A stretch of DNA of 20,000 nucleotides from an uncultured virus (IMG/VR IMGVR_UViG_3300014656_001812) (IMGVR_UViG_3300014656_001812), one strand, 5' to 3'; positions 1-19,684 are shown, numbered from the stretch's first letter. Notes: generated by a model not told the origin, from the letters alone. Numbers and translations are program-made.

Positions 1-1046
1 GGATCGAAACTATCTAATGATATAGGTTCCTCTACAACCTGTCCATCCTTGAAGCGCGTTCTTACATACTTAGAAGGAATAAAGTCTTCCAGATACCATC
101 TATACATATCGTAGTCTATACTCATCGCCATATTGGGATTGAATCCTATAGTATAGAAATCGAATGGCAATAGTTGTATGGCGCACATAAAGAGACCAGG
201 GAAGTTAGGCACGGCGCTGACATTGATAGACTGCAGGGCAACATCTGTGATGCCCAAGGAACCATTTATGTATGTATTATTAATAGCAACAAATGGCGTA
301 TTCCTGAATTGACGCACCAGCATTTCCAGTTCTTCTATATTAAAGACTACAAAGTCTATCCTGAGGACATCACGAATATTGCCTCTATTGACCTTATCCG
401 TCCCACGGTCGCGCAGGCGAGGATATGCTTTGAAATCTGTCTGCTTTATTATCTGTATAGAGGTAGGTAGGTAGTCTATATTACATAGGCCTATATTGAA
501 GAATCGCTCAGCGAGGTCGTGACCCTTCTCGTGTTCTTTTTGTAGATGATCTACTAATGTTTTTGGTGCTGTTGGAGCAGGATCTACCATGGGCGTAGGT
601 TGAGAAGAAGAAGGAAGCGATGCTAAAAGTTTTAACAGTTCCCTTGCCCATTTCTTAAGGATATCAATAACTCTTGGTTTTGTAGTATCTACTTTAGAAA
701 CATCTGTTGGAGCATTGTGCGTAGGACGAGGAAGACTACTAACTTTTGGAACATCTGCTGGTTCCCACCATATTTCCCATTCAAGAAGAGCTTTCTGGCA
801 AGCGGCTTCCCAATCCATAACTGGAGCTCCCGGCGGGCTATGTCCCTGAAATCCAGGATATGTCCATTGAAGAGTCCCGGGATATTCCAAAGACTCTTCT
901 AGAAAGGCTCCAGGAAACATATATTGATGAACCAGGTGGGAAAAGTCAACCGTGCCGATTAGGAGAAGAAGCTTTTCCTTTTCTGCATCTGTTAAAATAT
1001 CTGCTTCTGGTCTACTAAATCGAGGTGTAGATTCAATGACTCCCAT
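1..1046 (-). CDS. Probable virion structural (tail/baseplate region) protein, 3'-truncated by the window (>348 aa)
   Basis: Absent from the ORF track, consistent with no stop inside the window. ATG at 1046 with GGAG at 1054-1057, 13 nt after the upstream stop. Manual translation: MGVIESTPRFSRPEADIL...IDYLPTSIQIIKQTDFKAYPRLRDRG...RQFRNTPFVAINNTYINGSLGITDVALQSINVSAVPNFPGLFMCAIQLLPFDFY. Function inferred from gene position only. Confidence 0.8.
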   Translation of the reverse strand, partial: MGVIESTPRFSRPEADILTDAEKEKLLLLIGTVDFSHLVHQYMFPGAFLEESLEYPGTLQWTYPGFQGHSPPGAPVMDWEAACQKALLEWEIWWEPADVPKVSSLPRPTHNAPTDVSKVDTTKPRVIDILKKWARELLKLLASLPSSSQPTPMVDPAPTAPKTLVDHLQKEHEKGHDLAERFFNIGLCNIDYLPTSIQIIKQTDFKAYPRLRDRGTDKVNRGNIRDVLRIDFVVFNIEELEMLVRQFRNTPFVAINNTYINGSLGITDVALQSINVSAVPNFPGLFMCAIQLLPFDFYTIGFNPNMAMSIDYDMYRWYLEDFIPSKYVRTRFKDGQVVEEPISLDSFD

Positions 1047-1059: not shown

Positions 1060-4000
1060 TTACAAAGCTGACTTTAATGTATCTCGTAGTGAATACTCAT
1101 CTATATATGTTCTCTGATTAATAGAGGTATTATATCTATATGCTTCTGCGCGTGGAGGCTGTGGCTCCAATAAAGACGCTCTCTTCCTTCTCAATGGCTT
1201 AAAGTATCCACTACCTTCCTTGCTAGCATATATAGTTACCAACCCTTTGGGATGTCTAGCGACGGCGCCACCCTTTGCTAACATTTGACCAGCGTGTCCG
1301 CCGATGCCTGTCATTACATACCTAAGATAACCCCTTTCTGTATCTACATCCATAGAGTCATACTTTTGTACTCGTGGATCTTCTAATCCAACACTGGTAT
1401 AATAGTCTCTCAGTAGCGCATTCTCTTGTCGTTGCTCGCCCTTATGAGCAAGGTCTTTCATTCCTACCATTTCTGCGGTATTAAATAATAATGCTCCACC
1501 AAGCAACGCGGCACCAGCAAACAAGACATTACGATTACTCATTACATCTTTCAGGAGACTACCGTGCGCGAGATCCCGTATATTAGATTTGAATGGAGTG
1601 ACGACACGCGGTGCTGGGTTAAGCATCTTATAAAACATATCATCAATGACGTCATTCTGAGCCATAATGAGGTCGAATGTCTCTTGGTGGGTCTTACGAA
1701 GCATGGTTGAAAGTTCTGCTACTTTCTTGGCAGTCCCTGGATCCGCCCCTTGTAAGGCCTTATAATCACGAGCATCTACTCTATCTATAATGGCCTTAAG
1801 TATTTCATTAGGACGCTCATCCCCTGTAACTCCCATGGTCCGTATATATGCCGCAGCCTCTTGGGTCATCGTCCCCTGAGTAATAAATTCTTGTATAGAT
1901 AAAGGTAGTCCTTCTATATTGGTCATACCCATCGGTCCAACGGCCTCGGACTTACTAATCTGAAAGACACCAAAAGCTTCCACTACCCGAGGAGAGAACT
2001 TGCCAAGAGCACCAGACATAGAAGGAACAGTAGCCCCTCCCTTTTTCATCGTGTCTTCTACAACTTCAAGATTCCGAGCTATATGAGCAAAATTTAATAC
2101 GACGGTTCCTTGTTCCATTTTTGTACGTAAAGCATCTTCTACTTGTGCACGAATAATAGGATCTTTTAGCCCGCGCGTCGCCATAAGGCTATCTATGAGA
2201 TTATCCGTAAATTCTTCTGCTCCTGGTGCAGCCTTGCCAAGAATTTTTTGCTGAGCAGATACTTTTAGCCACCCGTGCACACCATGTTTTTCCCCAACGG
2301 GATATTCAATACCAAGCATCGGCTTCTTTCCTAGCCCTCCTGGTATAAGTTTAAAACTCACTATGTCATCGGCGGGACGAAGGGCAGAACCTGTAGTTCC
2401 CATTCCTACATCGGCTGGCTTCTTGAATGCACTCACTGCCTCCTGAATACGCTTTTGTCTTTCTACAATATTACCTTCAGTCTCGGCTAATATTATCTGA
2501 ACTTTCTTAGCCTCCTCCTCTGTTAAATTCAGAGTATCTGACATTAGTTTATTCTTAGAAGGAATGATAAAGGCATATTCAGAGTCGGCAAATGTTACAG
2601 GAAAATCTGAGCCCCTTTTCTTCAGTTCATTGGCCAATACTTCATCTACATTAATCATAGTAAATTGTTCTTTTGTCCATTGTAGATACAGCGCATGATC
2701 GCGGGAATTCACCTTCGCGCCCATCATCGTCAAATGATTCGCAACGTCAAGGGCAAAGGACTCATTAGTAGCAGTATTGAGATGCCTATATAGCGCGACA
2801 CCCTTCTCTGGTATAGAAGCATTGACGCCACCATACAATGGCGAGCCAGGCATAGTGTCCCGTAGCCTTTTCACTTCCTGCCGTAGACCCGTCATTATGT
2901 CTCTATTCTGTTCTCCTATCATTGTGTTGGTAAGTTCAGTTAAGGACATCGTATTCATTGTTGCTTGGCCATCAATCATCTTGACTATAGGATTACCAGT
3001 AGCATCTTTTAATTGGCGCGCATAGCGATTGATAGTATCAAGATACTCATTGTGCGCTCCTCTAAGGAACTCTAAGTTCCCTATCATATCTCTCTTCCGC
3101 CTAGACACGGGAAGATATACCATTGTAGAGCCAGGCTCTTTGAACTCGGGCGAGAAGGCCTCTATTATCTGTTTTACCTGCCATTGAGAAAACTTAGACT
3201 TCTCTCCTGTCTCTGAAGGCCTTAGGAGATCGTCTATAAATTCAGATATAGTTCTATGTTGATACTTGTATGTGCCAGGCTTTTCCTGAGGAATATAACG
3301 CCCATATCTAATATCCTGTCCTTCTATCCATTTCTGGTGTAGATACGCTCTAAGTTCTTCCTTCTCCTCCTTTCCAAGTTTCTCCATAGGCGTGAATAGC
3401 CAAGGCTTGGCCTCCTCACTTGTTAGCCTAGGCACCCCTAAGTCTATAGGAGTTATGGCCTCTTTAGCCTTTTGCACCTGCTGACTAAGGATTCTTTCTA
3501 GGTATCCAGGAGGAGTAGCCGTCTCTCCTTTTTCATACATACGCGCGCGCTTCAGGGCAATATATATATCCAATTCCTCTAAATTCTTTTGACCCCTGAC
3601 AATATCATATCCCTTTCTGTTCAGTGTACGAAGCCCGCCTTTCTCAACCATAAGCCTAGACAGTATTGGAAGATGTTCCTTGAGTTCCTTTGGAAGATAC
3701 TTCCATCCAGCATCATTGTTTTCATTAAGGATGCGTATTATTGCCTCGGCATTATCATTGCCATTCATCATCATATCTGTCCATAATGTAATGGCTTCTT
3801 TATGAGGAAACTGCATCATCCTTGGCTTCGCGGCATCTATGGCCATCTGGTTCATAGCGTGAATGACCATATCAGTCTTGGCCTTGAACCGCGCTGGATC
3901 GCCTATCTTATCCAGACCTTGACCAAAGAATAAGACCTCATTATAGGCATCCATTAGATTTCTAATTGTGCCTGCCTCTTGCATTAATAACTTTGACTGA

Positions 4001-5172
4001 TCTCGCTGAACTATCCTAGCATATACCTGATCATAATTCAAGAGCTCAACTGGTGTATTAGTCATCAAAGGCTGCTTGAGGATTGTGTCTGTGGGTATAT
4101 CCTTTAGCCACGATTTCTTCACGTGCGCCATTTCCCAGAAGATAGCCTGCTCATTCTGATACAATTGTCCAGTATCTTTATGTGTTAATGTTTTAAGATT
4201 GATATGATTAAGTTGGTTCTGGATTTCTTCCATATTGATATCATCAAGTCTACCAAAAGCGCGGGTAATCAGCATCCTGCGATGATACTCAAGCCATTCA
4301 TCGGCGCCCGTAATACCTTTATGCCGAGCAAATGCGAGCGTCTGCTTTGCTAGACTCGTTAAATTATGAGCTTCTGCACTAAAAGCAAATGACTTTGTTA
4401 TATCAGCATCCCAGTCCATATTCATCAGAGTATATTGAATTGGATTGACATAGGCAGACATCTTCGCGGCGGTATTATCCGCTATCATCCAGACGCTCTC
4501 ATAGGCATTTGGTGTTCTAAGGCTCATTCCTGGAATAACTTGGAATCCTGACTGGCCCTCTGATTGTATCATTAACTTCTTAAATTTCAAGTCTTTAGAG
4601 AGTTCCTTATTCATAGATTCCATTATGTCAGGACTAACGAACATTATATTAGCATCGGCAAGAAGACGACTATCGCGCGCCCACTGCGGAAAATCAGTCT
4701 CTGATAATGTATTATGAACAGCATCCATAATCTTCTTTTGCATATCAGAAGACATAGCATAATGGCGGCTCTCAAATGGTCTCATATGCAACTGCATACC
4801 TGGAGCGCCAGGAGATATTATTTTCTTCGCCGACTTAACGAAGTCATCTATCTCCGCCTTCTTCAGCCTTTGCATAAAACTACTATCAATTTTCTGTCCA
4901 GTTAGAGCGGCCGCCGCCGCGCGAACACCATATGAAGAAGACTCTTTTAAATTAATCGTCCCATCATCTTTCTGCCACCAATGAAGACTAAACAGATGCC
5001 TTTTGCCAAATATATCTTCATATCCAAATAGCATAGGAAAGGAAGACTTATGATGCATCATTATAGCATCTATTCTCTCGCGATAGGTGCGGAGATCCTT
5101 GACATTATGAGCAACAGCCTGCCCAAGGTGGACAATCTCTGTCTGAAGCTGAAGAATATCAAGACCTACCAT
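1060..5172 (-). CDS. 1370-aa putative virion-associated two-barrel (DPBB) RNA polymerase-like protein
   Basis: SLR219TP...YVNPIQYTLMNMD253WD255AD257 aligns with beta' LNRAP...LHPLVCAAYNADFDGD (R to first D 34 aa versus 35 in E. coli beta'). AID446AAK449 resembles the (A)VDxxK helix of single-chain two-barrel polymerases. Hydrophobic helix near the C-terminus (VLFAGAALLGGALLF). Confidence 0.7.
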   Translation of the reverse strand: MVGLDILQLQTEIVHLGQAVAHNVKDLRTYRERIDAIMMHHKSSFPMLFGYEDIFGKRHLFSLHWWQKDDGTINLKESSSYGVRAAAAALTGQKIDSSFMQRLKKAEIDDFVKSAKKIISPGAPGMQLHMRPFESRHYAMSSDMQKKIMDAVHNTLSETDFPQWARDSRLLADANIMFVSPDIMESMNKELSKDLKFKKLMIQSEGQSGFQVIPGMSLRTPNAYESVWMIADNTAAKMSAYVNPIQYTLMNMDWDADITKSFAFSAEAHNLTSLAKQTLAFARHKGITGADEWLEYHRRMLITRAFGRLDDINMEEIQNQLNHINLKTLTHKDTGQLYQNEQAIFWEMAHVKKSWLKDIPTDTILKQPLMTNTPVELLNYDQVYARIVQRDQSKLLMQEAGTIRNLMDAYNEVLFFGQGLDKIGDPARFKAKTDMVIHAMNQMAIDAAKPRMMQFPHKEAITLWTDMMMNGNDNAEAIIRILNENNDAGWKYLPKELKEHLPILSRLMVEKGGLRTLNRKGYDIVRGQKNLEELDIYIALKRARMYEKGETATPPGYLERILSQQVQKAKEAITPIDLGVPRLTSEEAKPWLFTPMEKLGKEEKEELRAYLHQKWIEGQDIRYGRYIPQEKPGTYKYQHRTISEFIDDLLRPSETGEKSKFSQWQVKQIIEAFSPEFKEPGSTMVYLPVSRRKRDMIGNLEFLRGAHNEYLDTINRYARQLKDATGNPIVKMIDGQATMNTMSLTELTNTMIGEQNRDIMTGLRQEVKRLRDTMPGSPLYGGVNASIPEKGVALYRHLNTATNESFALDVANHLTMMGAKVNSRDHALYLQWTKEQFTMINVDEVLANELKKRGSDFPVTFADSEYAFIIPSKNKLMSDTLNLTEEEAKKVQIILAETEGNIVERQKRIQEAVSAFKKPADVGMGTTGSALRPADDIVSFKLIPGGLGKKPMLGIEYPVGEKHGVHGWLKVSAQQKILGKAAPGAEEFTDNLIDSLMATRGLKDPIIRAQVEDALRTKMEQGTVVLNFAHIARNLEVVEDTMKKGGATVPSMSGALGKFSPRVVEAFGVFQISKSEAVGPMGMTNIEGLPLSIQEFITQGTMTQEAAAYIRTMGVTGDERPNEILKAIIDRVDARDYKALQGADPGTAKKVAELSTMLRKTHQETFDLIMAQNDVIDDMFYKMLNPAPRVVTPFKSNIRDLAHGSLLKDVMSNRNVLFAGAALLGGALLFNTAEMVGMKDLAHKGEQRQENALLRDYYTSVGLEDPRVQKYDSMDVDTERGYLRYVMTGIGGHAGQMLAKGGAVARHPKGLVTIYASKEGSGYFKPLRRKRASLLEPQPPRAEAYRYNTSINQRTYIDEYSLRDTLKSAL
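4402..4518 (-). other. Catalytic DPBB segment: RxP to DxDxD (NMDWDAD at 4402-4422)
   Basis: Direct translation; NP-x6-N-x-DxDxD spacing matches HP-x6-NADFDGD of cellular RNAP beta'. Confidence 0.75.
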
Positions 5173-8100
5173 TAGATTAAATTAGCCTCCAATGCCTGTG
5201 CTACTTGATATGCCGATATATTGCTAGAAGATATAGAAGCTCCGCCATATTCTCTATTGATCATACTAGTTATAGCCGCCATCTTTTCAGTAGGCAGAGC
5301 AGTATCAACGTGAACAACCCTGTCCCTCATTTTCTGAGGAGGATGCTGTATCTGATACTCGGGATCGTCTTGAATATGAAATGTAGGATCTGGCGCGCCG
5401 AGGTTAGCTACACCAATCATCGCGGCGGCTAGTCCTATCGCGGCCATTGTTCTTGATCTACCCGTATGAATCAAGGGGCGCATAAGCTCATCTGGTATTC
5501 TGATATAATCACCAGGAGCAGTCTTAACAGGAGAAAGCAACCCAAGAAAGTCGTGAAGAAGGGGATCCTCCATACGTACAGCCTGATTCCTCGCCCTCTG
5601 CCAAGCCCCCAATCCTGGCTTTTCTCCACCAAGAAATTGAGTAATCAGACCTCTCTCAATAGAAGGATCCTGATGACGAACTCCTTCCGCCCACTTCCTC
5701 TTGCCTAGCAAGACATCTGCAAATTGATAAGCAAATATATGTTTCTCAGTGAGACGAAAATTCTCCATATCAAAGATATCATTTAGAAGAACCTTAATAT
5801 TTTCCTTATGGATCTTAATATCTTCGTTCCATAAGAAGTCTTTCTCTCCTCTCCTAGAATTGATAAGATTGAAGACCTCATCAATATTCGTTACAGGAGT
5901 GCCAAATTTCTGGCTGACAGCGCCGAGAAGGGCATCTCCATATTCTGCTAATCCCCTAGCTATATCTCTCTGCATTGTATCATGGTCTGCCATCTTTATA
6001 CCAAGCCTAACTTGCTGACCCATAACGGTTTCATCTATAGCTAGAAATGTTCGCGCGAGCTCAGCGGCTGTATTCTCTGGCCCAGCTGTGCGTGTCGGTT
6101 CAAGCCTTGTCCATATATCCTTCTTTAGATCGGTTGTGTCTTTCATCTTCTCTAGTAATTTATGTTGCCACTCATCTCCTAACACTCCGAAGGCATTACT
6201 AGATATAAATGTCATAGCACCAGAGATTTTTTCCATTAAACCGATGGCCTCTTCTGCCCCAGCGTATCCTCCCAACAGATCAAGCATAGCTTTTGCAGTT
6301 AGCATAGCGCTAGCACTTCCATCTATACTTTCGCCCGCAAGATCTTTTATTCCTTTTTCTACGTTCGTTTCCCTCATAATAGCAGATATTACATTATATT
6401 TTTCTTCGTTGGCAAGAAGTTTCATATTCTGATGCATTATTTCAAAGTAAGAAGCAGTGGCGGCAAAACTTTCGTGGCGCAGATCTCTGACATCCGTTAG
6501 CCGACGGCGCGCAGTATCTACCGCGAAGGCAGCAAGATCTCCCATTCCTCCTTCAAATGTCTTCAAAGGAAGACCTTCTCTTACTACCTGCGGATCCATC
6601 ACCAATCTTACTGTGCGATCTGCCCGTAAAAGATCCTGAAAATGGTATCCTATATTTCCATCTGTTAGTTCCTCTAATCCAACAAATTTATATGGATTTT
6701 TAGGGTGCATAGCGGCGCGATCAAAGCGCAATGATTCTCTATGTGGACCTTTCTGCTTAAAAACAGTGGCAATATTCTTAGACGATTCTTCCATCCGTAT
6801 ACCGGGTATCTTATCTAAATCTTGAGTAGAAACTACAATCTCCCCAAGATTGAATATACTTTTTCCAGACGCAGCATCAACATTATAGTTAGTGATGAGA
6901 CTCCTGGCATTAGCATCAGCAGTGAGAGTAGTTAATAGATTTACAGTTGCAGCTACATCGCCAAGAACATTGTGCATTTCCGTCGTTGCGCGAGGGACCA
7001 TTAATCCAAGAGCAGAGTGCCGAACGTTTATTCCTTTGGCATCAAGTCCACCAATTAATGTAGTAAGTTCACTAGGTCTCATCTTAGAGAACATCTGGTG
7101 CATTTGTCTAGTAGCCGTAAGAGTATCAATGGCGCGTCCGAACTCAAGGTCCCATCCCCATTGTCGAAGAATTAGTCTATCAAAGTTTAGGTAGTTATGG
7201 CCAGCCTCAACTGCGTCGGCAAGGGGCACGCCAATCTTAGTAAACTCCCCCTTCACCGTAGATGTAATCTCGCCCATAGTTGCTAATTTTGTTCCAGCGG
7301 GCGTTGTGCTTACATATCTCTCGAATATCTCTTCTACATTCTTCGGGGCGACGAATATTTTTCTATTATTCCCAATCTCTTTGCCTTCGTGTATCACTCC
7401 TGCCTTAACCATTTGCTTTATAAGCATTTCGCTTTCACTAGAGGTAAATGGAAAGAGGTCTGTCGGGCCAGCCTTCTTCATAAACCTTTCTATTTCTACC
7501 TTACCAATATCCTCTAGTTTTCCTGTGTATTCCATTCCTTGGAATTGTTGTGCGAGCTTCAGGTAGTCTTGCCATATCTCGGCCTCTGCGCCGTGAGGTA
7601 CTTGTAGTCTAAATACCTTTGTTACAGCCTCGGGACCGTTACCAATTTGTATACCAATTTCATAAGGAAGAAGAGGAACTCTATCGGCGAGACCAATAGT
7701 TTCTATATCAACAAACATAGTCTTCTTAGCATACTTAGCCTGGAAGTCTCTCATAATCTCAGAGAAATCCATCGCCTCGCCGTAGCCCAACTCCTTTAAT
7801 GGATACTTCTTAAGCAAAGCCGCTTGGTGTGCAACATCTCCCATTATAGAAGCAGACTCTTTAGCACCTACTTGATGTATCAAACCAAACGCTTCTACAT
7901 TCTGTCCTGGTTGAAGACTAATCTGGAAGGCATCGTGGTACAATGAGAAGATATCATGAAGTTCTTTATCGACATTGTGTATAGTTAGTTGTGTTCCTTC
8001 TTTTCTAAGAAGTCTATCTTTTATAGCGGGTATCGTACCTCCATTTTCTGCCATCCAAGGTTCTCTTAATTCACTAAGAACATTGCTTTGTTCAGTGGTA

Positions 8101-8822
8101 AGTGGTCCAGTCGTCTTATCTAGTATCTTAGTTATCTCATCAATATCAGTATGAGGATCTCTCTTTATAAGAGTCTTAGATGCGGGTGTCTGGAATATAA
8201 CTCCACCAAGTTCTGCCTCTATGATGCCACCAGGACGACTCGTATATGGCACTGGCTTGCGCAACTTAGGGCCTAGAACATTATCAAGATTATCACCAGG
8301 ACCACTTTCTGTTATCCATCCCCTCATAGCAGCGGGTTCAGTAGTCCCGCGCGATTCTATGAGAGCCTTGAATCCTTCAATCTCGGATATATAATCAGAT
8401 ATAACTGGTCTCGCGCCACTGCCTAGTCCCATTGCCTCTTGTAGGGGTCCAAGAATCTTTGTGTCTTTCAAGTCAGGCGCGGTAGGACCATCAAGAACCT
8501 TAGACAAACTACGAAGGCCTTTTAGCATTCCTGTGTCAAGTTCTTCTTCGACGACATTATGAGGGATGCCCCTCCCATCGCTTGATATAACGATATAGTC
8601 GCCTGGACCTATCTTTGATATAGCCCACGATTCTGCCGATTGTCCAGTATATTCAGCCTGAGGCATATATGTAATAGTAGCAACGCCACCCATAACATCA
8701 ACAATATATACCAAGTCCCTATGAACAATGGCCGCAACATTCTGCTGATCAGTAATGATAGGAGAACTAAAATATGATCTCTTCATTATGAATAGTAGAC
8801 CATTGAGGTTAGATACAGGCAT
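5172..8822 (-). CDS. 1216-aa large phage protein with a DEDDh (DnaQ-like) 3'-5' exonuclease domain
   Basis: ExoI FVD372IE374TIGL, ExoII AGH542NYLNFD548, IDTL, ExoIII H617NVLGD622. C-terminal hydrophobic helix MAAIGLAAAMIGVANLGA. TAATG overlaps with both neighbours. Confidence 0.8.
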   Translation of the reverse strand: MPVSNLNGLLFIMKRSYFSSPIITDQQNVAAIVHRDLVYIVDVMGGVATITYMPQAEYTGQSAESWAISKIGPGDYIVISSDGRGIPHNVVEEELDTGMLKGLRSLSKVLDGPTAPDLKDTKILGPLQEAMGLGSGARPVISDYISEIEGFKALIESRGTTEPAAMRGWITESGPGDNLDNVLGPKLRKPVPYTSRPGGIIEAELGGVIFQTPASKTLIKRDPHTDIDEITKILDKTTGPLTTEQSNVLSELREPWMAENGGTIPAIKDRLLRKEGTQLTIHNVDKELHDIFSLYHDAFQISLQPGQNVEAFGLIHQVGAKESASIMGDVAHQAALLKKYPLKELGYGEAMDFSEIMRDFQAKYAKKTMFVDIETIGLADRVPLLPYEIGIQIGNGPEAVTKVFRLQVPHGAEAEIWQDYLKLAQQFQGMEYTGKLEDIGKVEIERFMKKAGPTDLFPFTSSESEMLIKQMVKAGVIHEGKEIGNNRKIFVAPKNVEEIFERYVSTTPAGTKLATMGEITSTVKGEFTKIGVPLADAVEAGHNYLNFDRLILRQWGWDLEFGRAIDTLTATRQMHQMFSKMRPSELTTLIGGLDAKGINVRHSALGLMVPRATTEMHNVLGDVAATVNLLTTLTADANARSLITNYNVDAASGKSIFNLGEIVVSTQDLDKIPGIRMEESSKNIATVFKQKGPHRESLRFDRAAMHPKNPYKFVGLEELTDGNIGYHFQDLLRADRTVRLVMDPQVVREGLPLKTFEGGMGDLAAFAVDTARRRLTDVRDLRHESFAATASYFEIMHQNMKLLANEEKYNVISAIMRETNVEKGIKDLAGESIDGSASAMLTAKAMLDLLGGYAGAEEAIGLMEKISGAMTFISSNAFGVLGDEWQHKLLEKMKDTTDLKKDIWTRLEPTRTAGPENTAAELARTFLAIDETVMGQQVRLGIKMADHDTMQRDIARGLAEYGDALLGAVSQKFGTPVTNIDEVFNLINSRRGEKDFLWNEDIKIHKENIKVLLNDIFDMENFRLTEKHIFAYQFADVLLGKRKWAEGVRHQDPSIERGLITQFLGGEKPGLGAWQRARNQAVRMEDPLLHDFLGLLSPVKTAPGDYIRIPDELMRPLIHTGRSRTMAAIGLAAAMIGVANLGAPDPTFHIQDDPEYQIQHPPQKMRDRVVHVDTALPTEKMAAITSMINREYGGASISSSNISAYQVAQALEANLI
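6957..7718 (-). other. DEDDh exonuclease domain with a long insertion between ExoI and ExoII
   Basis: All four acidic residues and the catalytic His are present in order. Confidence 0.75.
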
Positions 8823-11800
8823 TACAGATATCCTCCCATAAGGATATTCTCAGCATAATATTTAGTACGATCCTCTTTAATATTGAAGTGAACATCTATC
8901 CTGCTATTATAAGTATTAGATTCTAGAACTTTAATATTGAAATTTTCAATATTATTAGATACAAACATTTCAGTCAGCTTTGTCTTAACATCAGGAGTGC
9001 GCCTATGTATTGATGGCAAACATTCAAGTTCTCCTTCTCTACCAGAAGGCCACAGATTGAGTTCGTGAGCATCTATTGCTAGATCATGCGCAACATTTAC
9101 CTTAAAGTCATCCAAAGAAGTATCAGGATTCCATATTTCGTGATCTGGCGAGGGCAACCAATGAGATTGGAAATAATCTATTAGATTAATCTTGGGCTGT
9201 GACTTATGCCATTGTAGCATTAGTGCCCGCCTTGTATCACTAGGAACTTTCTTTAGTATTTCTTCCTGTTCTTCTTCACCGGCATCCAGCCATGAAGGAA
9301 TATATCCACGCATTCTTTTGGGTAGCGCGCGCATCATTTGGGCAACACTTGATCTCGTATCAAGGGCTACTACAGTTGATTCATATTGGTGTTTATAATA
9401 TAATCCTTTCTGTATAATGTCAGGTAATCCAGCAAGATCACCAGACTGAAGCATATTCAATATCTGATCTGCTTGATCATATGCTCCAGCAACTTCCTGA
9501 TCTTCTATTATAATTTCTGGCGGTATATTTTGAAGTTTATCGGTAGAAGAAACAATGTCTGCTAATTTCTTCAGGTTAATACCAAGATACTCATCAGAGA
9601 GATCCGAAGCGTGCTCAAATAACATCTTGAACTTTATATATTTAATCCTATCGAACCACTCTTCTATATCTCTCATCTGTCTCTCATCTCTGGGAATATA
9701 GGTCCTTCCAATTGAACTTGGATTAAGAGCAGTACGTAAGAGAGATGTAGCAAGACCTATCGCAGCACCATAGACACCCCCTGTCATTGAACGGCGCGCA
9801 CCTCTGGTAAGATTAAGGACAACACCAACGGCAGCGCCAGCGGTAGCCGCGGGTAATGGATCTTTACTACTCAGAGCAGTGTATGTAGCCTTAACGTGCT
9901 TAAATAAATTAAATCCCATATATTGATCGCCATATAATTGTCGCCGCGAGTAGTGTTCTAAGGCTGACATCTTACCAAGTTTATTGGTGATAGGAGTATC
10001 GGCGTGTATAATAGATTCCCACGCTTTCTCTAATGCCCCTGCCCTCTTTCCGTGAATAGCCTCATAATCGGCGGCTGACACAGGCTCATCCATTGGCTCA
10101 AATAGGGCTTCTTCTCTCATTGCCTGAGCGACACTCGTGCCGTGAACATAAAACGCCGCGACCTTCTCTCCTGGTACCCACCTCATACTCAGAGAAGTAT
10201 TCATAAGTAATTCGGTTAATTTTTCCCGCGCGATATCTTCTCTTCCCTCAACTGGTCTTCCTAATCCAGCAACGCGCATAACCTGAACGTCATCACCAGC
10301 CTGAACCTTGAATGTATAGGCGCCAACTTGTCCAAGAATCTTAGCGGGAGATTCCTTGAGCGGATATTTGAATAATCTTTCATCAAAGACATGGCGCTTC
10401 TTCATCATACGCGCTTTCTCTTGTATCTCTTTAATTCTTATCTTGTCTTCTTTGCTATGCGCCTGTTCCTGCGCTTTCTTTAGTTCTACCTCATATTCAG
10501 GAGACCAAGGCGCGACATCTGCCAGTATATCCGCGCGTGCCATAGGCTTGTAGGTTTCATATGGAGAAATTAATCCTCGTTCCATCATTGAAGCAAGTTT
10601 CTGTTGGGCGCTTCCTAAAGTCTCAAGGTCTTTTGTGAGACGCGCTTTATCCATCTGAACGGGCACAAGCATTCTATCAGATGGATTAGCGCGGTTCACA
10701 TATAATATATATCCATCATTTAGACCAAGAGAATACATATAGAAGTTAGCCTGCGAGATATGTGTATTCTGCGCTATACCTGCTCTCGCGGCGTTCATAG
10801 TATTCTTGCCAGCTGTCTTTATCTCTACAACAGCAGGACCTGCAGGACCTTGAATAATAGCATCGATATATCCAGTTAGGCCAGACTCTGGATCGCGCAC
10901 CTCTACTTCTGAATCTATCAATATCCCTTTGGTTTCTAATTCTTGCTGTATTGATCTATGAAGCATCGTGCCAGCCTCAAGAATTTCTTCTTGATAAGAC
11001 GGCAGGTTCTGTTCAAAGTTGGTAAGATAAGCTATTATCTCTGCCTCTGACTTACCTAAGATAGAAGGTCCAGGATGACGCACGATTTCCCCTAGCCCTC
11101 CATGTGTAGCTTCATATGTTCTGCCAGGAAGTCGATAAATTCCCTGTATAATCTTAGAATTATGAGTAGCAATGCCAGCAACACAAAAGGAATTATCTTG
11201 TGGAACATCAAACCCAATAAAATCTGTATCAATTTGTACTTCTTCAGTCTTATAAACTTTCATAAATATAAAATCATCAGTCAAAATGGTAAATCCAGCA
11301 TTTTTATTCTGCATAAAAGGAATCTCAATATCCAAATTCATTTTATGTGCTAATACACTAGCATCATTTCCATATACTTTTAAGGTAAATTCTATACTAT
11401 TCTCGACAATACTTTCTCCAATAATAATATTTTTACGTATGCGATTGTAAATATTACTTCTAATTCCTAATCTTAACAACAACTTTCTAATTTGCAACAA
11501 TAATTGTTGATTACAAGACGAAAAAGATAATATAAGAGTGGTACCATAACCGTCATGGCGCACCCTGTCATACCCATCTCCTTCGAGATATCCATGTATT
11601 AACCCAAGAACAAATTCATCAGGGGCGTCCATGACCCAGTCTGGTATAGACTTATTATGGGAGTTATTACCAAAAACATCTCTTAGTACTTTTGCCAATG
11701 ACGGATTATGGCGGCAACATTTAATTCCTTTCCGAGAACGGCCATTATAAAGACGACCATCTTTATATACCTTGAGGGGATTTTGCCGTATGGATACTAG

Positions 11801-14800
11801 CCAATCGTTAAATATTGGAAGCAACGTTTCTTCTTCTTTTTGATGAAGGCTTAGATAAATCTGGTTTTTATCAGTACTTCCTTCTGCTAAAAATAATCCC
11901 ATAGCAAATCCGGATAATCTATCCAGAGTTAAAATCCGTAACAAAGGACAGTTATAATCTTTTAAGACTTCTGGATTAGCGAGAGGACGAGGATAAACAA
12001 CATAGTCTCCAGGAACTAACTTGTCGGCGTTTTTCCATTCAAATCTATTTTTGATCATATAGAGATCGTACTCGTCCTTATCCATTATCCTAATATTACC
12101 AAATAGATCTTTTGTTATTTTTCTATCTTTCGCCATGAAATCTAGAATAACACGAACATTTGCAGGATGCAATCCGGTCAATTCTGAAATCTGTTTCTTT
12201 TTAACATTGGGAAAATCCTTAAGCACTCGAAGAATAGTATTGGCATACTCATATCTTTTTATAAGCCTTAAAGGTTGCCGGGATTGATATCCTACGTTAG
12301 AACAAACCAAGAAGGGATGTTCTTTAGATACAACGATATCCACCCCTGATAACGATGCTATGTTCACTCGGTATGCCTTTTCATCCTCGGTTCTCAGACG
12401 ATCAAAAATGGCAATAGGACTTATAAGATTTCCTTTATGAGTAACGAGTTCATCCTGAATAATAACATCCTTTGCTTTCTTGAAATCTAGTTTCCCAGTC
12501 TCTATCAATGTTTCTGGAGATACACAATATGGATTACCCATTCGGAAGTTAATGAAGTTATCGGAGTTATGAACGGCTATCCCATACGCATTATAAGTCT
12601 GCGTATTGGCTACCTGTAAATTATATACTTTGCATTTCGTATCTTTTTTATTTACTGATTTAACACGCCTGAGAATATATCCTTTATGTACCACAGAACC
12701 AGATTGATGATTTGTATCAGTTGTGCGGGAGATTTTCCGTCCATAAGAATTTGTTAATTGACGTAATTTGTATCCTCCTTGTGCAGAAATGGTTATGGTA
12801 TATTGTTCTTTCTTGTCTTCTCTGCCAGAAGATGATATTATCTCGAATTGTGCCAAGATTGCTTTTATGGACGTTAAAAGCGATAAGGACGTACTTGTGG
12901 CCGATAATGAGCCATTAAAGCAACATCCGTCACCCTCAATATATCCAGAAACGATGCCGAGTTTTAATTCATCGCTTGATGAATATACCCAATCTGGAAT
13001 GTACTTTGAATTTGATAGATGGCCAAATTGACTTCTAAGCCAAGCACAAAGTTCGACGGAATTTGCCTGGCTTACTATACATCCCGTGCCATCCTCTCTA
13101 TAAACAGGCTTATGATGAGTATGAACAGAATGTCTTGAGCAAAAATCATCTAGCGCTATTCTTTGATGTTCTTCGTTTTTTCCAGAACCGAATACTACAT
13201 TATATTTGGTAGCGTGCCCTTCAGAGAGATAGAATCCTATGGCCACCCCCGTGATAAAATCGTCCTCAATAGAATAATTGCTAAGTTTTATACGACCACG
13301 CGCAGGCTTTTGTATGATGTCTGGGATAGAACATCGTGGGACAGATTGAATTATCGGCTCTAGTACAAAGTCGCCTGGAGTTATACTTTGGGCAGCAGTC
13401 CATTCTGGCTCCGAATATTGTTTGGTCTTACAATATTTACAGGGTTTATTATTATTTGGGTGAAGTCCAGGTATACAATATCTATTCCTTTTATGATATG
13501 GACATCTATCCGATTTAATAACAAGGAATGGATGATCTTGTGTAGAAATGATATTTGATGATATACCTTGTGCCTCTATTTCTATAAGATAATCGGTATA
13601 ATCGCGTTCATTAACCTGCTCAATTGCATTAAATGTGCCATCGTGTGATAATACGCGGTCGCCTATAGCAAGACTTTCTATGGTAACCATGCCTTTATCA
13701 GTTAACACTTTGGTGCCAGCTATAAAACAACCTGGCATCCACGTCGGTTGATCATTCCTAATTCTATTAACGGCTTGTCCCCTGCGCGGTGGCGCCCAGA
13801 GACGACGAGGTATCTCACTGAATTCCTCATAAGGAAGACCACCAAGTTGCAGATCTTTTAATGCGAAGCCAGCAGAGAAATAATCTCCAGGTGTCTCGAA
13901 CCTAGACCTGAATAACTGGTCTTCTCCTACTAATTCCTGGAGCGCCCAACCACGAAGTCCAGCAACTTCTGTCAGTGAATGGAATACTTGAGAGAGTCCT
14001 TCCTTAACTCCAGTGCCCATCGCGGGCGCGGCGGCAAGATTAGCAGATGTTTCATTTAGGCCAACAAGAACATCACGAGAAAATAACGTTCCCTTGCCTG
14101 GACGACCAAGGGAACTAAATTCCCCAGTAGAACCATAGCCAGCTTGTCTAATTGGTATGCCTGCTATTTGAGGTCCAGGAGCACCAGCACCCATTGCATA
14201 GGTAATGTCTCCGGAGGTTACAGCGACGCCCGCACCAGTCCCCCCTCCTCCACCTGGACCCCCAGCACCAATGGCTTGCTGTAATCTTATAGGTGGCTTT
14301 ATCCATCCTAAGAAAAGATTTGCTACGGCTCCGTGTGGTGTATTAGGATCAAAGGGTGGCGCACTAATCTCATATGGCATATCTCGGTAATGTAATTTCT
14401 CTTGATGATATCTATCAAATACACGGCTCCTGAGAGGATTCAGATACCACGACCAATAGTCTCCTTCCTCTTCTCCATACATCTGGCGTAGATATTCGCC
14501 GCGCGCTTCTTTCTTCTTATATATATTTGGAACAGTAGCAATGGCGCCTTCTCCAAGGAATGGAGTATTAGAAAGAGTCCAGAATCTGCCTTTGCGTATT
14601 ACCTTCTCTCCTTCAAGATAATACTTCTCTTTCTCCTCTCTCTCTCCCCTCATTGAAGCAAGGCCAAGATTTATATTTACCCAAGCATTGACGGCGGTGC
14701 CATATAGTCCTTCGTGGCCTCCTTTCCTTTGAAGAAAATCAACAAATGAGGCAATGTTATATGTAGCACCAATAGCAGTAGTCGCCGCAGCGATGGCTAG

Positions 14801-17029: not shown

Positions 17030-17059
17030 AATAAAAGAGGACCGCTAACCTACGGTCCC
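17030..17059 (-). terminator. Possible weak intrinsic terminator or translation-modulating hairpin
   Basis: Minus strand GGGACCGU-AGGUUA-GCGGUCCU followed by CUUUUAUU and then the AUG of the 2735-aa gene. Confidence 0.4.
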
Positions 17060-17455
17060 TGACCTCTTATAGACCCCAGGTATATTATCGGGAGCGCGAG
17101 GTGTTGGGGTTGAATATAGTCGTTCTATGTCTTTCAGGAATTCTTCCTTGCTCTGTTCGACCTGTTTGGCTTGCTCAGGAACAACAGAAGGCACCCTAAA
17201 GCATTCAGCAAGGTCTATCTGTAGCGTCATAGGAATCATTGTTACCTTGCCATTCTGAGCCACCATTGGTGACGATATAGACCGATATGTATTAAGGACA
17301 TATTCAGCCTTTGCTACATATTCACACCAGTTATCTATTGGAAGCCTAAGGACATCAGAATAGGGCATCCTTAGTGTTTCTACTATTAATAGATCTAATT
17401 GTTCGAATAGGTCTTGAGAGATTCTATCGCGGGCGCGCAAAATCTTCGCGCCCAC
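17045..17455 (-). CDS. Tail assembly chaperone T-like ORF, probably expressed as a -1 frameshift fusion (~280 aa) with the upstream ORF
   Basis: Lies in the -1 frame relative to 17455..17886. Its GTG has no SD and is buried in a hairpin. LRMPYSDVLRLPIDNW resembles the short helical signature of gpGT C-terminal parts. Confidence 0.7.
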   Translation of the reverse strand: MGAKILRARDRISQDLFEQLDLLIVETLRMPYSDVLRLPIDNWCEYVAKAEYVLNTYRSISSPMVAQNGKVTMIPMTLQIDLAECFRVPSVVPEQAKQVEQSKEEFLKDIERLYSTPTPRAPDNIPGVYKRSGTVG

Positions 17456-17467
17456 TAGAGTTTTTTT
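17429..17467 (-). promoter_or_regulatory. Programmed -1 ribosomal frameshift signal
   Basis: Slippery A AAA AAA (17467-17461), 5-nt spacer CUCUA, then hairpin GUGGGCGCG-AAGAUUUUG-CGCGCCCGC. The -1 frame reads ACT CTA GTG GGC into the next ORF. Confidence 0.8.
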
Positions 17468-19679: not shown

Positions 19680-19684
19680 TAATG

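What the first reader, a model, noticed from the sequence alone, without database searches (positions are those of the whole stretch)
3826..4800. Hidden, highly divergent RNA polymerase active site (NMDWDAD) in a tail-module protein
Seen: ordered motifs MRPFESRHYAM, NIMFVSPDIM, SLRTP, VNPIQYTLMNMDWDAD and later QMAIDAAK. Established: beta' has KRVDYSGRSVI, CGLP, NRAP and HPLVCAAYNADFDGD in the same order; all three Mg-binding Asp and the conserved Arg are retained here with near-identical spacing. DWDAD departs from canonical DFDGD, as DFDID does in the crAss-like phi14:2 virion RNAP. Inference: a new lineage of virion-packaged two-barrel RNAP allowing host-independent early transcription.
Basis: partly seen in the sequence, partly recalled or inferred. 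Interest (0 to 1): 0.9.

Follow-up and report, generated by a model that had tools for sequence, protein, structure and literature searches.

The report
RNA-polymerase core in phage tail giant
A 1,370-residue protein encoded among the tail genes of an uncultured contractile-tailed phage carries a very divergent copy of the catalytic domain of cellular-type RNA polymerase, so the phage probably injects its own transcription enzyme through its tail, which has been published for only one other phage.

Summary
They lie in gene 1060-5172 (minus strand; protein P0001, 1,370 aa), with NMDWDAD at residues 251-257.

P0001 alone matches nothing in Pfam, PHROGs, PDB sequences, or two protein collections (5.8 billion clusters; 1.84 billion representatives).

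Synteny gave the link. The upstream giant P0003 is a homologue of Bacillus phage 0305phi8-36 gp145. P0002+P0001 occupy the slot of that phage's 'tape measure' gp146.

- In 43 of 80 related IMG/VR loci the giant in that slot matches one profile. All 43 carry [RK]xP...DxDxD.
- That profile, built without P0001, hits RNA polymerase beta' subunits in the PDB (best E 4.7e-4).
- It also aligns P0001 residues 174-478 colinearly (p 3.3e-4; 2 of 3,000 shuffles reach the score).
- In a 34-sequence alignment the only invariant residues are P0001 R219, P221, D253, D255, D257 and G401.
- An AlphaFold model gives residues about 173-269 a double-psi barrel, at moderate confidence.

Not shown: a second barrel, virion packaging of this protein, or any activity.

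Closest precedent: the tape-measure-fused virion RNA polymerase gp96 of Thermus phage P23-45.

This is a new variant of a known kind. Earlier notes of this scan describe similar tail-module giants in other genomes.

The parts
1060..5172 (-). Gene for P0001 (1,370 aa), second half of a split tail-module giant. Its ATG overlaps the TAA of P0002 by one base (TAATG), with GGAGG 13 nt upstream.
4366..4764 (-). Residues about 137-269: beta'-type catalytic double-psi beta-barrel (DPBB-A)-like domain. Residues 173-269 are the better-supported part.
   Evidence: AF2 model with pLDDT 53-79 over residues 141-270. VIA-align and Foldseek matches to double-psi barrels and RNA polymerase largest subunits. 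Profile match.
4621..4650 (-). NIMFVSPDIM (aa 175-184). It aligns to the family block 'idfvvis..a...mG'. In the model it is a strand plus a helix.
4510..4518 (-). R219-T-P221: the invariant Arg-x-Pro of two-barrel RNA polymerases.
   Evidence: invariant in 34 of 34 sequences; aligned to family RyP
4402..4416 (-). D253-W-D255-A-D257: candidate Mg-binding catalytic loop.
   Evidence: invariant Asp triad in 34 of 34 sequences; DNA read
3952..3975 (-). AGTIRNLM (aa 400-407) with invariant G401. It lies at a kink between two long helices (376-396 and 398-417) and is a candidate bridge-helix equivalent (inference).
   Evidence: (sub-profile 'bh', p 1.3e-3)
3826..3849 (-). QMAIDAAK (aa 442-449), matching the family block 'eQ..IS.K'. 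K449 is nearly invariant.
1474..1530 (-). The only strongly hydrophobic segment of P0001 (aa 1215-1233, NVLFAGAALLGGALLFNTA). It is a possible membrane-insertion segment of the kind known in tape measure proteins.
   Evidence: its role is inference
5172..8822 (-). Gene for P0002 (1,216 aa), first half of the split giant. It has one hydrophobic segment at aa 1125-1143 and a weak DnaQ-like exonuclease signal at aa 369-622.
8822..17029 (-). Gene for P0003 (2,735 aa; 1,891 aa without its two inteins), a homologue of 0305phi8-36 gp145. This was the syntenic anchor that led to the relatives.

Best explanation
P0001 is the C-terminal half of a giant tail-lumen protein. In most relatives this protein is a single chain of 2,200-3,300 residues, encoded where 0305phi8-36-like contractile-tailed phages keep their presumed tape measure. 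In this phage the gene is split into P0002 and P0001.

P0001 residues about 137-450 are a very divergent catalytic core of the cellular-type (two-barrel) RNA polymerases. It contains a beta'-like double-psi barrel with Arg219-x-Pro221 and the metal-binding loop D253-W-D255-A-D257. Two conserved helical blocks follow, around G401 and Q442...K449.

Most likely mechanism (inferred by analogy with Thermus phage P23-45 gp96):
- The protein is packed in the tail with the other giants.
- It is expelled into the host at infection.
- Its single hydrophobic segment helps to form or attach to the entry channel.
- Its polymerase core transcribes the first phage genes independently of the host enzyme.

Shown here: the homology of the catalytic barrel, the invariance of its signature residues, and the tail-module position.
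Inferred only: a complete active site (second barrel), packaging in the virion, and transcription.
For: 1. Synteny. The gene order is tail-tube paralogues, two small chaperone-position ORFs, P0003, P0002, P0001, then a hub/endolysin-like ORF. This matches 0305phi8-36 gp140/141, gp143/144, gp145, gp146 ('hypothetical tape measure', a virion protein by mass spectrometry per the record) and gp147 (PMC2147016, passages).

2. Distribution in relatives.
- In 43 of 80 IMG/VR loci fetched with the P0003 family, a downstream giant matches profile A2 at E <= 1e-3. All 43 carry [RK]xP...DxDxD.
- Cultured Bacillus phages KLEB27-3 (gp034, annotated 'structural protein') and Edson match at E 1.8e-59 and 6.2e-41.
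- KLEB27-3 gp034 gives a sub-threshold Pfam RNA_pol_Rpb1_2 hit (E 0.015).

3. Link of the family to RNA polymerase. A2 has 32 family windows and does not include P0001. Its only invariant residues are R, P, D, D, D and one G. Searched against PDB sequences, 16 of its 20 hits at E <= 10 are RNA polymerase largest subunits, and one more is the P23-45 tape measure entry 8h2m. The best hits are AR9 beta' (4.7e-4) and phiKZ (1.2e-3).

4. Link of P0001 to the family.
- The A2 HMM aligns P0001 residues 174-478 to profile positions 511-825 (domain E 3.3e-4 at Z=1).
- 2 of 3,000 shuffles reach that domain score.
- Separate sub-profiles hit colinearly: the barrel at p 4e-4 and the helical block at p 1.3e-3.
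- hhalign places P0001 175-257 on the same columns.
- MAFFT independently makes R219, P221, D253, D255, D257 and G401 invariant in 34 of 34 sequences.

5. Structure. The AF2 model built on that alignment gives pLDDT 53-79 for residues 141-270. Its strand/helix order is 176-179, 212-219, 223-231, 240-242, helix 244-249, the loop, then 259-263. All 50 rows of the second look (Z 7.7-8.4, rmsd about 2 A, 70-84 residues aligned) are Cdc48/p97-type N-domains. In the wide search, 17 of 50 rows cover this domain. They include a designed DPBB, VAT-N, and RNA polymerase I and II largest subunits (Z 6.5 and 6.3).

6. The closest relative by P0003 (L002) has the same two-gene split, with NADYDGD at residue 408 of the second gene.
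Against: - P0001 on its own matches nothing: Pfam and PHROGs (and 22 at E <= 10), PDB sequences, the 5.8-billion-cluster collection, the 1.84-billion-representative collection, GenBank phages, IMG/VR.
- The statistics linking it to the family are modest. hhalign gives P 0.011 with probability 3.9%. The full-sequence HMM score is reached by 29 of 3,000 shuffles.
- The model is weak overall: mean pLDDT 49.9, pTM 0.33, and 292 of 560 residues under 50. It leans on the family alignment. Residues 125-140, where the first barrel strand should be, are not confidently modelled.
- Foldseek found no PDB match at E <= 0.001. Its best rows are non-polymerase double-psi barrels. RNA polymerase rows have E 0.13-0.3. 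Z values of 6-8 are in the range the tool calls middling.
- No second barrel was found in P0001 or P0002. The candidate upstream block in the family, K-x-h-[KR]-h-x-x-[RQ]-E, is not invariant.
- The loop has Ala where most relatives have Gly, although L020 has DIDAD.
- 0305phi8-36 gp146 and Moorella phage MTATph1 CDS0027 lack the module, so it is not needed for the tail role.
- No genome is held for this window. Early promoters or a second polymerase could not be sought.
Confidence: 0.6

Rival explanations
1. The domain is a real, conserved double-psi-barrel nucleotidyl transferase, but its job is not early mRNA synthesis. It might make primers or short RNAs, copy RNA as QDE-1 does, or act on DNA as the two-barrel DNA polymerase PolD does, while the phage genome enters.
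For: The same evidence of homology and invariant catalytic residues applies. Nothing here speaks to template or product. Two-barrel enzymes include RNA-dependent and DNA-synthesising members (PMC10770324 section 11; PMC2919709 passages). The neighbouring giants carry nuclease-like domains: a Cas4-like domain in P0003 and a weak DnaQ-like signal in P0002. That hints at nucleic-acid processing at entry.
Against: Every phage-delivered two-barrel enzyme characterised so far is a DNA-dependent RNA polymerase for early genes: crAss-like gp66 (bioRxiv abstract, search listing), P23-45 gp96 (sections 6 and 13 of PMC10770324), and the phiKZ/AR9 virion polymerases (abstracts). The profile's best PDB matches are DNA-dependent RNA polymerases.
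Confidence: 0.12
2. P0001 is essentially a structural tail-lumen (tape-measure-like) half-protein. Its polymerase module is a decaying relic, inactive since the gene was split and the partner barrel lost.
For: - No second barrel was found in P0001 or P0002.
- P0001 is by far the most divergent member. The profile E is only 3.3e-4 against 1e-30 to 1e-80 for typical members.
- It has the Gly-to-Ala change in the loop.
- Relatives such as 0305phi8-36 gp146 do without the module.
- The rest of P0001 is helical and has no matches.
Against: All six residues that are invariant across 33 other sequences of about 14% identity are retained in P0001, and K449 as well. A relic would be expected to lose some of them. 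The sister lineage L002 keeps the same split with an intact NADYDGD. Second barrels are known to be undetectable by sequence between families (PMC10770324 section 12).
Confidence: 0.15
3. The motif is a chance occurrence in an unrelated orphan protein, and the alignment to the family is an artefact of forcing a weak match.
For: DxDxD occurs in 23% and [RK]xP...DxDxD in 8.7% of shuffled P0001 sequences. The hhalign probability is 3.9%. There are no homologues by direct search.
Against: - The match lies in the syntenic protein at the expected relative position. The motif falls 57% along P0002+P0001, against 56% along the L002 pair.
- Four separate blocks align colinearly with three different methods.
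- 2 of 3,000 shuffles reach the domain score.
- The region folds as a double-psi barrel in the model.
Confidence: 0.05

Closest known systems
Thermus phage P23-45 gp96, tape-measure-fused virion RNA polymerase (PMC10770324; PDB entry 8h2m appears)
   Same: Both are two-barrel-type catalytic cores with RxP...DxDGD-type signatures embedded in a giant tail protein that also has a membrane segment. Neither is recognisable by standard annotation. For gp96, delivery through the tail and transcription of the first genes were shown by experiment (sections 6 and 13 read).
   Different: - gp96 belongs to a long non-contractile-tailed phage and has the polymerase at its N-terminus (DFDGD at 779-783 of 5,002 residues). 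Here the host is a contractile-tailed lineage and the module lies 56-80% along the giant.
- Here the gene is split in two and the loop is DWDAD.
- Sequence similarity between the family profile and 8h2m is not significant (E 2.1).
- Activity, structure and packaging are untested here.
Split beta' subunits of jumbo-phage multisubunit RNA polymerases (AR9 non-virion 7s00/7s01 chain d; phiKZ 7ogp chain A)
   Same: These are the best sequence matches of the family profile in the PDB (E 4.7e-4 to 1.2e-3). They align over the 'nR.Pt...gS ... D.DGD' half of the catalytic barrel.
   Different: Those are stand-alone subunits of 400-500 residues in a four- or five-subunit enzyme, with recognisable beta partners. 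Here the domain sits inside a tail giant and no beta-like partner was found.
crAss-like phage phi14:2 gp66 virion RNA polymerase
   Same: It is a giant virion protein with a variant loop (DFDID, seen at residue 1361), flanked by two other giants (gp65, gp67). The family profile aligns to its RxP...DFDID stretch (P 0.014).
   Different: There is no pairwise similarity between P0001-P0003 and gp65-gp67 (best E 0.088). gp66 comes from a podovirus-like lineage, and its cargo is head-packed rather than encoded at a tape-measure locus (recalled).
Bacillus phage 0305phi8-36 gp146 ('hypothetical tape measure protein')
   Same: It has the same genomic slot, between the gp145 homologue and the hub/endolysin. 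It shares the family's C-terminal module of about 75 residues.
   Different: gp146 has no DxDxD and does not match the polymerase profiles. That phage is reported to carry a separate YonO-like polymerase (PMC7824862 and PMC2919709, passages).
YonO of the SPbeta prophage and eukaryotic QDE-1-type enzymes (single-chain two-barrel polymerases)
   Same: They carry the same eight-residue logic of the superfamily. Five of those residues (R, P, D, D, D) are present here (PMC2919709 passages).
   Different: YonO and QDE-1 are free-standing enzymes with both barrels identifiable. No similarity to them was detected or specifically tested here, beyond their absence from the PDB hit lists.

Membership tests
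Two-barrel (double-psi beta-barrel) RNA polymerase superfamily | Signature [RK]xP followed within 20-100 residues by DxDxD (the filter used in PMC10770324, Supplementary Data 4), conserved in relatives | tested here: met
   R219-T-P221, then 31 residues, then D253-W-D-A-D257. Invariant in 34 of 34 aligned sequences. All 43 profile-positive relatives carry it.
Two-barrel (double-psi beta-barrel) RNA polymerase superfamily | The catalytic residues sit on a double-psi beta-barrel (DPBB-A) | tested here: met
   AF2 model on alignment A3, pLDDT 53-79 for residues 141-270. Matches to double-psi barrels at Z 7.7-8.4 with rmsd about 2 A. Matches to a designed DPBB, VAT-N and RNA polymerase I/II largest subunits at Z 6.3-6.8. 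Caveats: confidence is moderate, the model is alignment-driven, and the first strand is not resolved.
Two-barrel (double-psi beta-barrel) RNA polymerase superfamily | A second barrel (DPBB-B) supplying an Asp and two basic residues | tested here: inconclusive
   A sub-profile of the family's upstream block gives no significant hit in P0001, P0002 or the L002 pair. The block itself is not invariant and does not grow on iteration.
Two-barrel (double-psi beta-barrel) RNA polymerase superfamily | Bridge helix and trigger-loop start after DPBB-A | tested here: inconclusive
   Conserved helical blocks around G401 and Q442...K449 align to the family and are long helices in the model. Structural matches to that part are generic helices. 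[quoted passage not shown]
Two-barrel (double-psi beta-barrel) RNA polymerase superfamily | Template-dependent RNA synthesis | not testable with these tools
   Needs biochemistry.
Pfam RNA_pol_Rpb1_2 (PF00623) | Score at or above the gathering cut-off (25.3 bits) | tested here: not met
   P0001 gave no hit even at E <= 10. The relative KLEB27-3 gp034 scores 16 bits, E 0.015. So it is not a member of this Pfam model as defined, although it is homologous by profile.
Tail-locus giants with a polymerase module (relatives of KLEB27-3 gp034; unnamed family defined here) | Encoded directly downstream of the gp145-like giant and upstream of the hub/endolysin | tested here: met
Tail-locus giants with a polymerase module (relatives of KLEB27-3 gp034; unnamed family defined here) | Match to the family profile over the catalytic region | tested here: met
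   Domain E 3.3e-4 at Z=1, reached by 2 of 3,000 shuffles. This is far weaker than for typical members.
Tape measure protein | Length proportional to tail length; sits in the tail tube; follows the tail chaperone genes | not testable with these tools
   Only position can be judged. The slot matches 0305phi8-36 orf146, itself assigned by its correlation with tail length (PMC2147016, passages). P0003, not P0002/P0001, directly follows the chaperone-position ORFs.
Virion-packaged RNA polymerase | Protein detected in purified particles | not testable with these tools
   Indirect only. gp146 of 0305phi8-36 is a virion protein by mass spectrometry per its record. KLEB27-3 gp034 is annotated as a structural protein.

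The most novel reading that the evidence does not exclude
P0002 and P0001 together form a two-subunit polymerase that travels through a contractile tail.
- The gene split falls in the connector between the two barrels. That would make it an independent re-invention of the beta/beta' division of labour.
- P0002 would contribute the undetected second barrel and a DnaQ-like proofreading nuclease.
- Each half would carry its own membrane segment.
- The two would refold and assemble at the entry pore, transcribing the genome as it is threaded in.

More broadly, the polymerase-bearing giants in 43 of 80 related loci would make tail-lumen delivery of a two-barrel polymerase a common strategy of large contractile-tailed phages, rather than an oddity of one Thermus phage.
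Probability: 0.15. Interest if true: 0.85.

Novelty: new variant of a known kind. Interest (0 to 1): 0.66.

Why it matters
If the module is active, large contractile-tailed phages related to Bacillus phage 0305phi8-36 would carry their first transcription enzyme inside the tail. These include cultured Bacillus phages KLEB27-3 and Edson and dozens of uncultured 100-260 kb phages. So far that arrangement has been shown by experiment only for the long-tailed Thermus phage P23-45.

It would explain how such phages start infection without the host polymerase. It would add a very divergent family to the two-barrel polymerases. It would also raise a mechanical question: how does a polymerase of more than 1,000 residues pass through a tail tube and refold?

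The case also shows that this family is invisible to Pfam, PHROGs and pairwise search. It was recovered only by synteny plus a purpose-built profile.

In the library searched, no paper was found that describes a polymerase module in these giants. The library lacks most subscription journals. The profile alignments of PMC10770324 (a 7z file) could not be read.

Tried and rejected
Searches with P0001 that found nothing:
- Pfam and PHROGs, and Pfam at E <= 10 on fragments.
- PDB sequences, GenBank phages by tblastn, IMG/VR.
- The 5.8-billion-cluster collection and the 1.84-billion-representative phmmer search.
- ESM Atlas: best hit scored 0.76, an unnamed viral cluster, below the useful range.
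- Single-sequence AF2: pLDDT 34, unusable.

crAss-like hypothesis: phi14:2 gp65-67 were fetched and compared. No similarity was found, so it was rejected as the context.

Other searches that led nowhere:
- P0002 and the P0003 C-terminus as single queries in IMG/VR: nothing. The alignment query succeeded.
- phmmer of P0001 and P0002 against ORFs of the 80 loci: nothing significant.
- Iteration from long seeds stalled.
- tblastn of two family windows against GenBank phages: no match. Cultured members were found only through the P0003 homologue plus the profile.

Second barrel: the sub-profile, re-alignment and iteration were all inconclusive. One search failed because of my own wrong search strings.

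C-terminal module: the profile of the family's last 75 or 330 residues does not significantly hit P0001 or P0002. A by-eye resemblance of their C-termini is therefore not claimed.

P0002 exonuclease: there is no PDB or Pfam support, only a PHROG hit at E 0.0025.

My early reading of a beta'-like 'GK.G...R.D.S.R' block in the family consensus was dropped after the rows were inspected.

The A3 profile also hits beta-tubulin with its C-terminal helical part (E 0.0075-0.26). This was judged spurious.

The family profile finds no second copy elsewhere in five related genomes.

No complex-prediction job was sent, because no binding claim is made.

Full report
**What is in the window**

All long ORFs lie on the minus strand. 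Read in the direction of transcription they are:
- two tail-tube-like ORFs (19685-19978 and 18843-19679)
- a 289-aa ORF
- two small ORFs of 143 and 136 aa
- P0003 (8822-17029, 2,735 aa)
- P0002 (5172-8822, 1,216 aa)
- P0001 (1060-5172, 1,370 aa)
- an ORF that runs off the window (3-1046) and matches an 'endolysin' PHROG with a 1,954-position profile

The tail-tube-like ORFs hit a PHROG labelled 'major head protein'. Their best GenBank matches carry notes saying tail tube.

The three giants are translationally coupled. The P0002 stop and the P0001 start overlap as TAATG, with GGAGG 13 nt upstream.

**The observation**

The catalytic-loop codons were read directly.

By itself the motif is weak evidence. 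In 5,000 shuffles of P0001, DxDxD turns up in 23%, [RK]xP...DxDxD in 8.7%, and the stricter NxD[FYW]DxD in 0.1%.

**P0001 alone is an orphan**

It gave no Pfam or PHROG family (fragments at E <= 10). It gave no PDB sequence match. Nothing but itself appeared among the candidates of the 5.8-billion-cluster collection or in a full phmmer pass over 1.84 billion representatives. It had no tblastn match in 50,697 phage records or in IMG/VR. A single-sequence AlphaFold model was useless, with pLDDT 34.

phi14:2 has three consecutive giants (gp67, gp66, gp65) and DFDID at residue 1361 of gp66. But there is no pairwise similarity to P0001-P0003.

**Synteny opens the case**

The C-terminal 746 residues of P0003 have homologues (22 proteins). 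An alignment of them (A1) retrieved 80 IMG/VR loci, mostly from contigs of 100-260 kb. One of these is Bacillus phage 0305phi8-36.

In that phage the order is:
- tail sheath
- tail tube and its paralogue
- gp142
- two 'tail chaperonin' genes
- gp145 (the P0003 homologue)
- gp146 ('hypothetical tape measure protein', 2,537 aa, a virion protein by mass spectrometry)
- gp147 (hub/endolysin)
- baseplate

(passages of PMC2147016 confirm how orf146, orf143/144 and gp147 were assigned.)

P0002+P0001 (2,586 aa together) therefore fill the gp146 slot. In the related loci the slot holds one giant of 2,200-3,300 aa. In L002, the closest relative by P0003 (32% identity), it holds two genes of 1,428 and 1,858 aa, as here.

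**A conserved polymerase signature in that slot**

Listing DxDxD motifs in the downstream giants showed a recurrent D-x-D-G-D about two thirds to four fifths along the protein. Examples are 'NADFDGDQVAM' in L013, 'GADFDGD' in L011, 'NADIDAD' in L020, and 'NADYDGD' at residue 408 of the second L002 gene.

An iterated profile seeded on L013 gathered 35 giants. With it, P0001 was the next best sequence after the L002 protein (E 0.047 among 118 sequences).

I then aligned 32 family windows, without P0001, as A2. Of the 39 non-identical windows, I dropped six near-duplicates and one short one. At 14% mean identity the only invariant columns are one Arg, one Pro two residues later, the three Asp, and one Gly about 100 residues downstream. 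That is the published filter for two-barrel polymerases, '[RK]xPx{20,100}DxDxD' (PMC10770324, Supplementary Data 4, part 1 read).

**The family is related to beta'**

The A2 profile was searched against all PDB sequences and gave 20 hits at E <= 10.
- 16 are RNA polymerase largest subunits: AR9 non-virion beta' 4.7e-4, phiKZ 1.2e-3, an RPB1 homologue (8q3b_A) 0.03, archaeal Rpo1N 0.13-0.42, bacterial beta' 0.27-2.8.
- One is the 'Tape tail measure protein' entry 8h2m (E 2.1).
- Three are unrelated.

All polymerase hits align to the same stretch, 'nRyPt...gS ... D.DGD'.

The profile that includes P0001 (A3) gives the same top hits, and off-target beta-tubulin hits from its helical C-terminal part.

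Cultured members exist. Bacillus phage KLEB27-3 gp034 ('structural protein', 2,434 aa, 'NRYPT...KADYDGD') and Bacillus phage Edson 0920 match A2 at 1.8e-59 and 6.2e-41. 0305phi8-36 gp146 and Moorella phage MTATph1 CDS0027 do not match and have no DxDxD. gp034 gives a sub-threshold Pfam RNA_pol_Rpb1_2 hit (E 0.015).

Of the 80 loci, 43 have a profile-positive giant, and 43 of those 43 carry the signature. Of the other 37:
- seven have no downstream ORF of 500 aa or more in the fetched DNA;
- several carry too-divergent DxDxD candidates;
- some have none.

**P0001 belongs to this family**

- The A2 HMM aligns P0001 174-478 to profile 511-825, with domain E 3.3e-4 at a search space of one. It pairs NIMFVSPDIM with 'idfvvis..af.dmG', SLRTP with 'nRyPt', NMDWDAD with 'gDfDGD', AGTIRNLM with 'IGeinnal', and QMAIDAAK with 'eQafIssK'.
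- Of 3,000 shuffles, 2 reach the domain score and 29 reach the full-sequence score. The reversed sequence does not.
- Sub-profiles of the barrel and of the helical block hit separately and colinearly (p 4e-4 and 1.3e-3).
- hhalign of P0001 against a 39-row family alignment picks residues 175-257 on the same columns, though with P 0.011 and probability only 3.9%.
- MAFFT on P0001 1-560, the L002 protein and 32 family windows (A3) independently yields invariant R219, P221, D253, D255, D257 and G401, and nearly invariant K449.

The first motif (MRPFESRHYAM) was not aligned by any method.

**Fold**

AlphaFold on A3 gives a poor model overall: mean pLDDT 49.9 and pTM 0.33. Residues 141-270 are at 53-79. 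The secondary structure there is strand 176-179, helices 181-191 and 195-207, strands 212-219, 223-231 and 240-242, helix 244-249, the Asp loop, then strand 259-263.

Foldseek found no match at E <= 0.001. Its top rows are p97/Cdc48 N-domains (E 0.03-0.3) interleaved with RNA polymerase beta'/Rpb1-type chains (E 0.13-0.3, probability 0.41-0.95).

VIA-align against 48,161 representatives gave 17 of its 50 listed rows on residues 137/173-264/275:
- Cdc48, VAT and Pex1-type N-domains (Z up to 8.3, rmsd 2.0 A, 70 residues)
- a designed 'msDPBB' protein
- the 'DPBB domain of VCP-like ATPase'
- aspartate decarboxylase
- an expansin
- human RNA polymerase I (Z 6.5)
- Drosophila RNA polymerase II (Z 6.3)

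The other 33 rows are generic helix matches.

The second look at Foldseek's best 1,000 chains fills all 50 rows with Cdc48/p97-type N-domains (p97, Cdc48 and a related AAA ATPase complex) at Z 7.7-8.4.

So the fold of residues about 173-269 is a double-psi barrel. Structure alone does not single out the polymerase kind. The sequence profile does. The model leans on the family alignment, and the barrel's first strand is unresolved.

**What is missing**

A functional enzyme of this class needs a second barrel with an Asp and two basic residues (PMC2919709 and PMC7824862, passages).

About 400 profile positions upstream of the loop the family has a modest block, K-x-h-[KR]-h-x-x-[RQ]-E. It is not invariant. 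It does not grow on iteration. Its sub-profile hits neither P0001, P0002 nor the L002 pair.

In P0001 only about 135 mostly helical, low-confidence residues precede the barrel. Any second barrel would therefore have to come from P0002. The P23-45 authors note that families of these enzymes share no significant sequence similarity beyond the DxDxD region (section 12). So the failure to find it is uninformative rather than negative.

**Mechanism proposed**

By analogy with P23-45 gp96 (sections 6, 11 and 13 of PMC10770324), the giant is carried in the tail, leaves first at infection, and transcribes the first genes as the DNA enters.

Consistent features here:
- the tail-module position;
- the virion status of gp146 and the 'structural protein' label of gp034 in relatives;
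- exactly one strongly hydrophobic segment in each of the three giants (P0001 1215-1233, P0002 1125-1143, P0003 16-34).

The relative G001 (the genome of L002) also has a separate 560-aa ORF with DFDGD that matches a PHROG named 'RNA polymerase beta subunit' (E 3.9e-6), and a 925-aa ORF with DNDGD and no matches. This fits a two-polymerase programme, but it could not be checked for this window's phage because no genome is held.

A resemblance between Q442..I445,D446..K449 and the spacing of the trigger-loop residues of bacterial beta' is recalled from memory and untested.

**Novelty**

Virion two-barrel polymerases fused to giant proteins are published for crAss-like phages and, as a tape-measure fusion, for P23-45.

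I found no paper that describes such a module in the gp146-slot giants of 0305phi8-36-like phages:
- searches;
- 'KLEB27-3' returned no paper;
- the 2026 jumbo-phage review has none of the terms 'tape measure', '0305', 'YonO' or 'P23-45';
- the 2021 jumbo-phage survey credits 0305phi8-36 only with a separate YonO-like enzyme.

The library lacks most subscription journals, and one supplementary archive of PMC10770324 could not be read.

Earlier notes of this scan describe similar tail-module giants in at least seven other genomes. They agree with this reading but are unchecked AI notes on other DNA.

**Verdict**

P0001 is an extremely divergent, split member of an unannotated family of tail-locus giants that carry a beta'-type catalytic barrel. 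It is most likely a tail-delivered RNA polymerase. The complete active site, packaging and activity remain to be shown.

Noticed in passing
window 12566-13729 and 11159-12526 (minus strand; P0003 aa 1101-1488 and 1502-1957): P0003 carries two inteins with LAGLIDADG homing-endonuclease domains, only 13 residues apart. Both interrupt the most conserved motif of the gp145-like family (consensus NPIRNTMP.WLP..F..GDPY.K...GE.RLPG.GYE). Without them P0003 is 1,891 aa, close to gp145 (1,930 aa). Several homologues also carry intein domains.
   Followed up: partly
window 10580-11029 (minus strand; P0003 aa about 2001-2150): There is a Cas4-like PD-(D/E)XK nuclease domain inside the gp145-like tail giant (PHROG 1706, E 1.9e-17; Pfam PDDEXK_1, E 0.008). 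It is a nuclease that would be delivered with the tail contents. The same stretch matches stand-alone Cas4 exonucleases of 84 Streptomyces phage records.
   Followed up: partly
window 6957-7718 (minus strand; P0002 aa 369-622): P0002 has strings that read like the three DEDDh exonuclease motifs (MFVDIETIG, HNYLNFD, HNVLGD) and a weak PHROG hit to 'DNA polymerase exonuclease subunit' (E 0.0025). Pfam and PDB sequence searches do not support it.
   Followed up: partly
window 18843-19978 (minus strand): The two tail-tube paralogues match a PHROG and GenBank features labelled 'major head protein'. The notes of the 0305phi8-36 record and the KLEB27-3 annotation say tail tube. The head-protein label looks like a propagated mis-annotation.
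   Followed up: partly
window 17045-17886 (minus strand): Two adjacent small ORFs (143 and 136 aa, sharing one base) sit where 0305phi8-36 has its two-gene tail chaperonin gp143/gp144. Homology between the two was not tested.
   Followed up: no
L016:12241-19851 (0305phi8-36 gp146) and L083:15824-19753 (Moorella phage MTATph1 CDS0027): These slot-equivalent giants lack the DxDxD and do not match the polymerase profiles. gp146 still shares the family's C-terminal module of about 75 residues. The polymerase module is therefore an optional insert of the tail giant.
   Followed up: partly
L091:5726-7405 and L093:9559-12333 (genome G001, closest relative): Outside the tail module, G001 has a 560-aa ORF with DFDGD matching a PHROG 'RNA polymerase beta subunit' (E 3.9e-6). 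It also has a 925-aa ORF with RxP...DNDGD and no database match. These are possible non-virion polymerase genes.
   Followed up: partly
alignment A3, profile positions 454-577 (P0001 roughly aa 440-560): The helical C-terminal part of the profile gives many beta-tubulin hits in the PDB (E 0.0075-0.26, tubulin residues 287-446). This was judged to be compositional or helical coincidence and was not examined further.
   Followed up: no
window 1060-1250, 5175-5330 and 8825-8990 (C-termini of P0001, P0002, P0003): By eye, the last 40-60 residues of all three giants resemble the family's C-terminal tail (a 'h-I-x-I-x-A' strand, then '...N-h-N-I-...-I-x-D-...-L'). Profiles of that module did not score them significantly.
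   Followed up: partly
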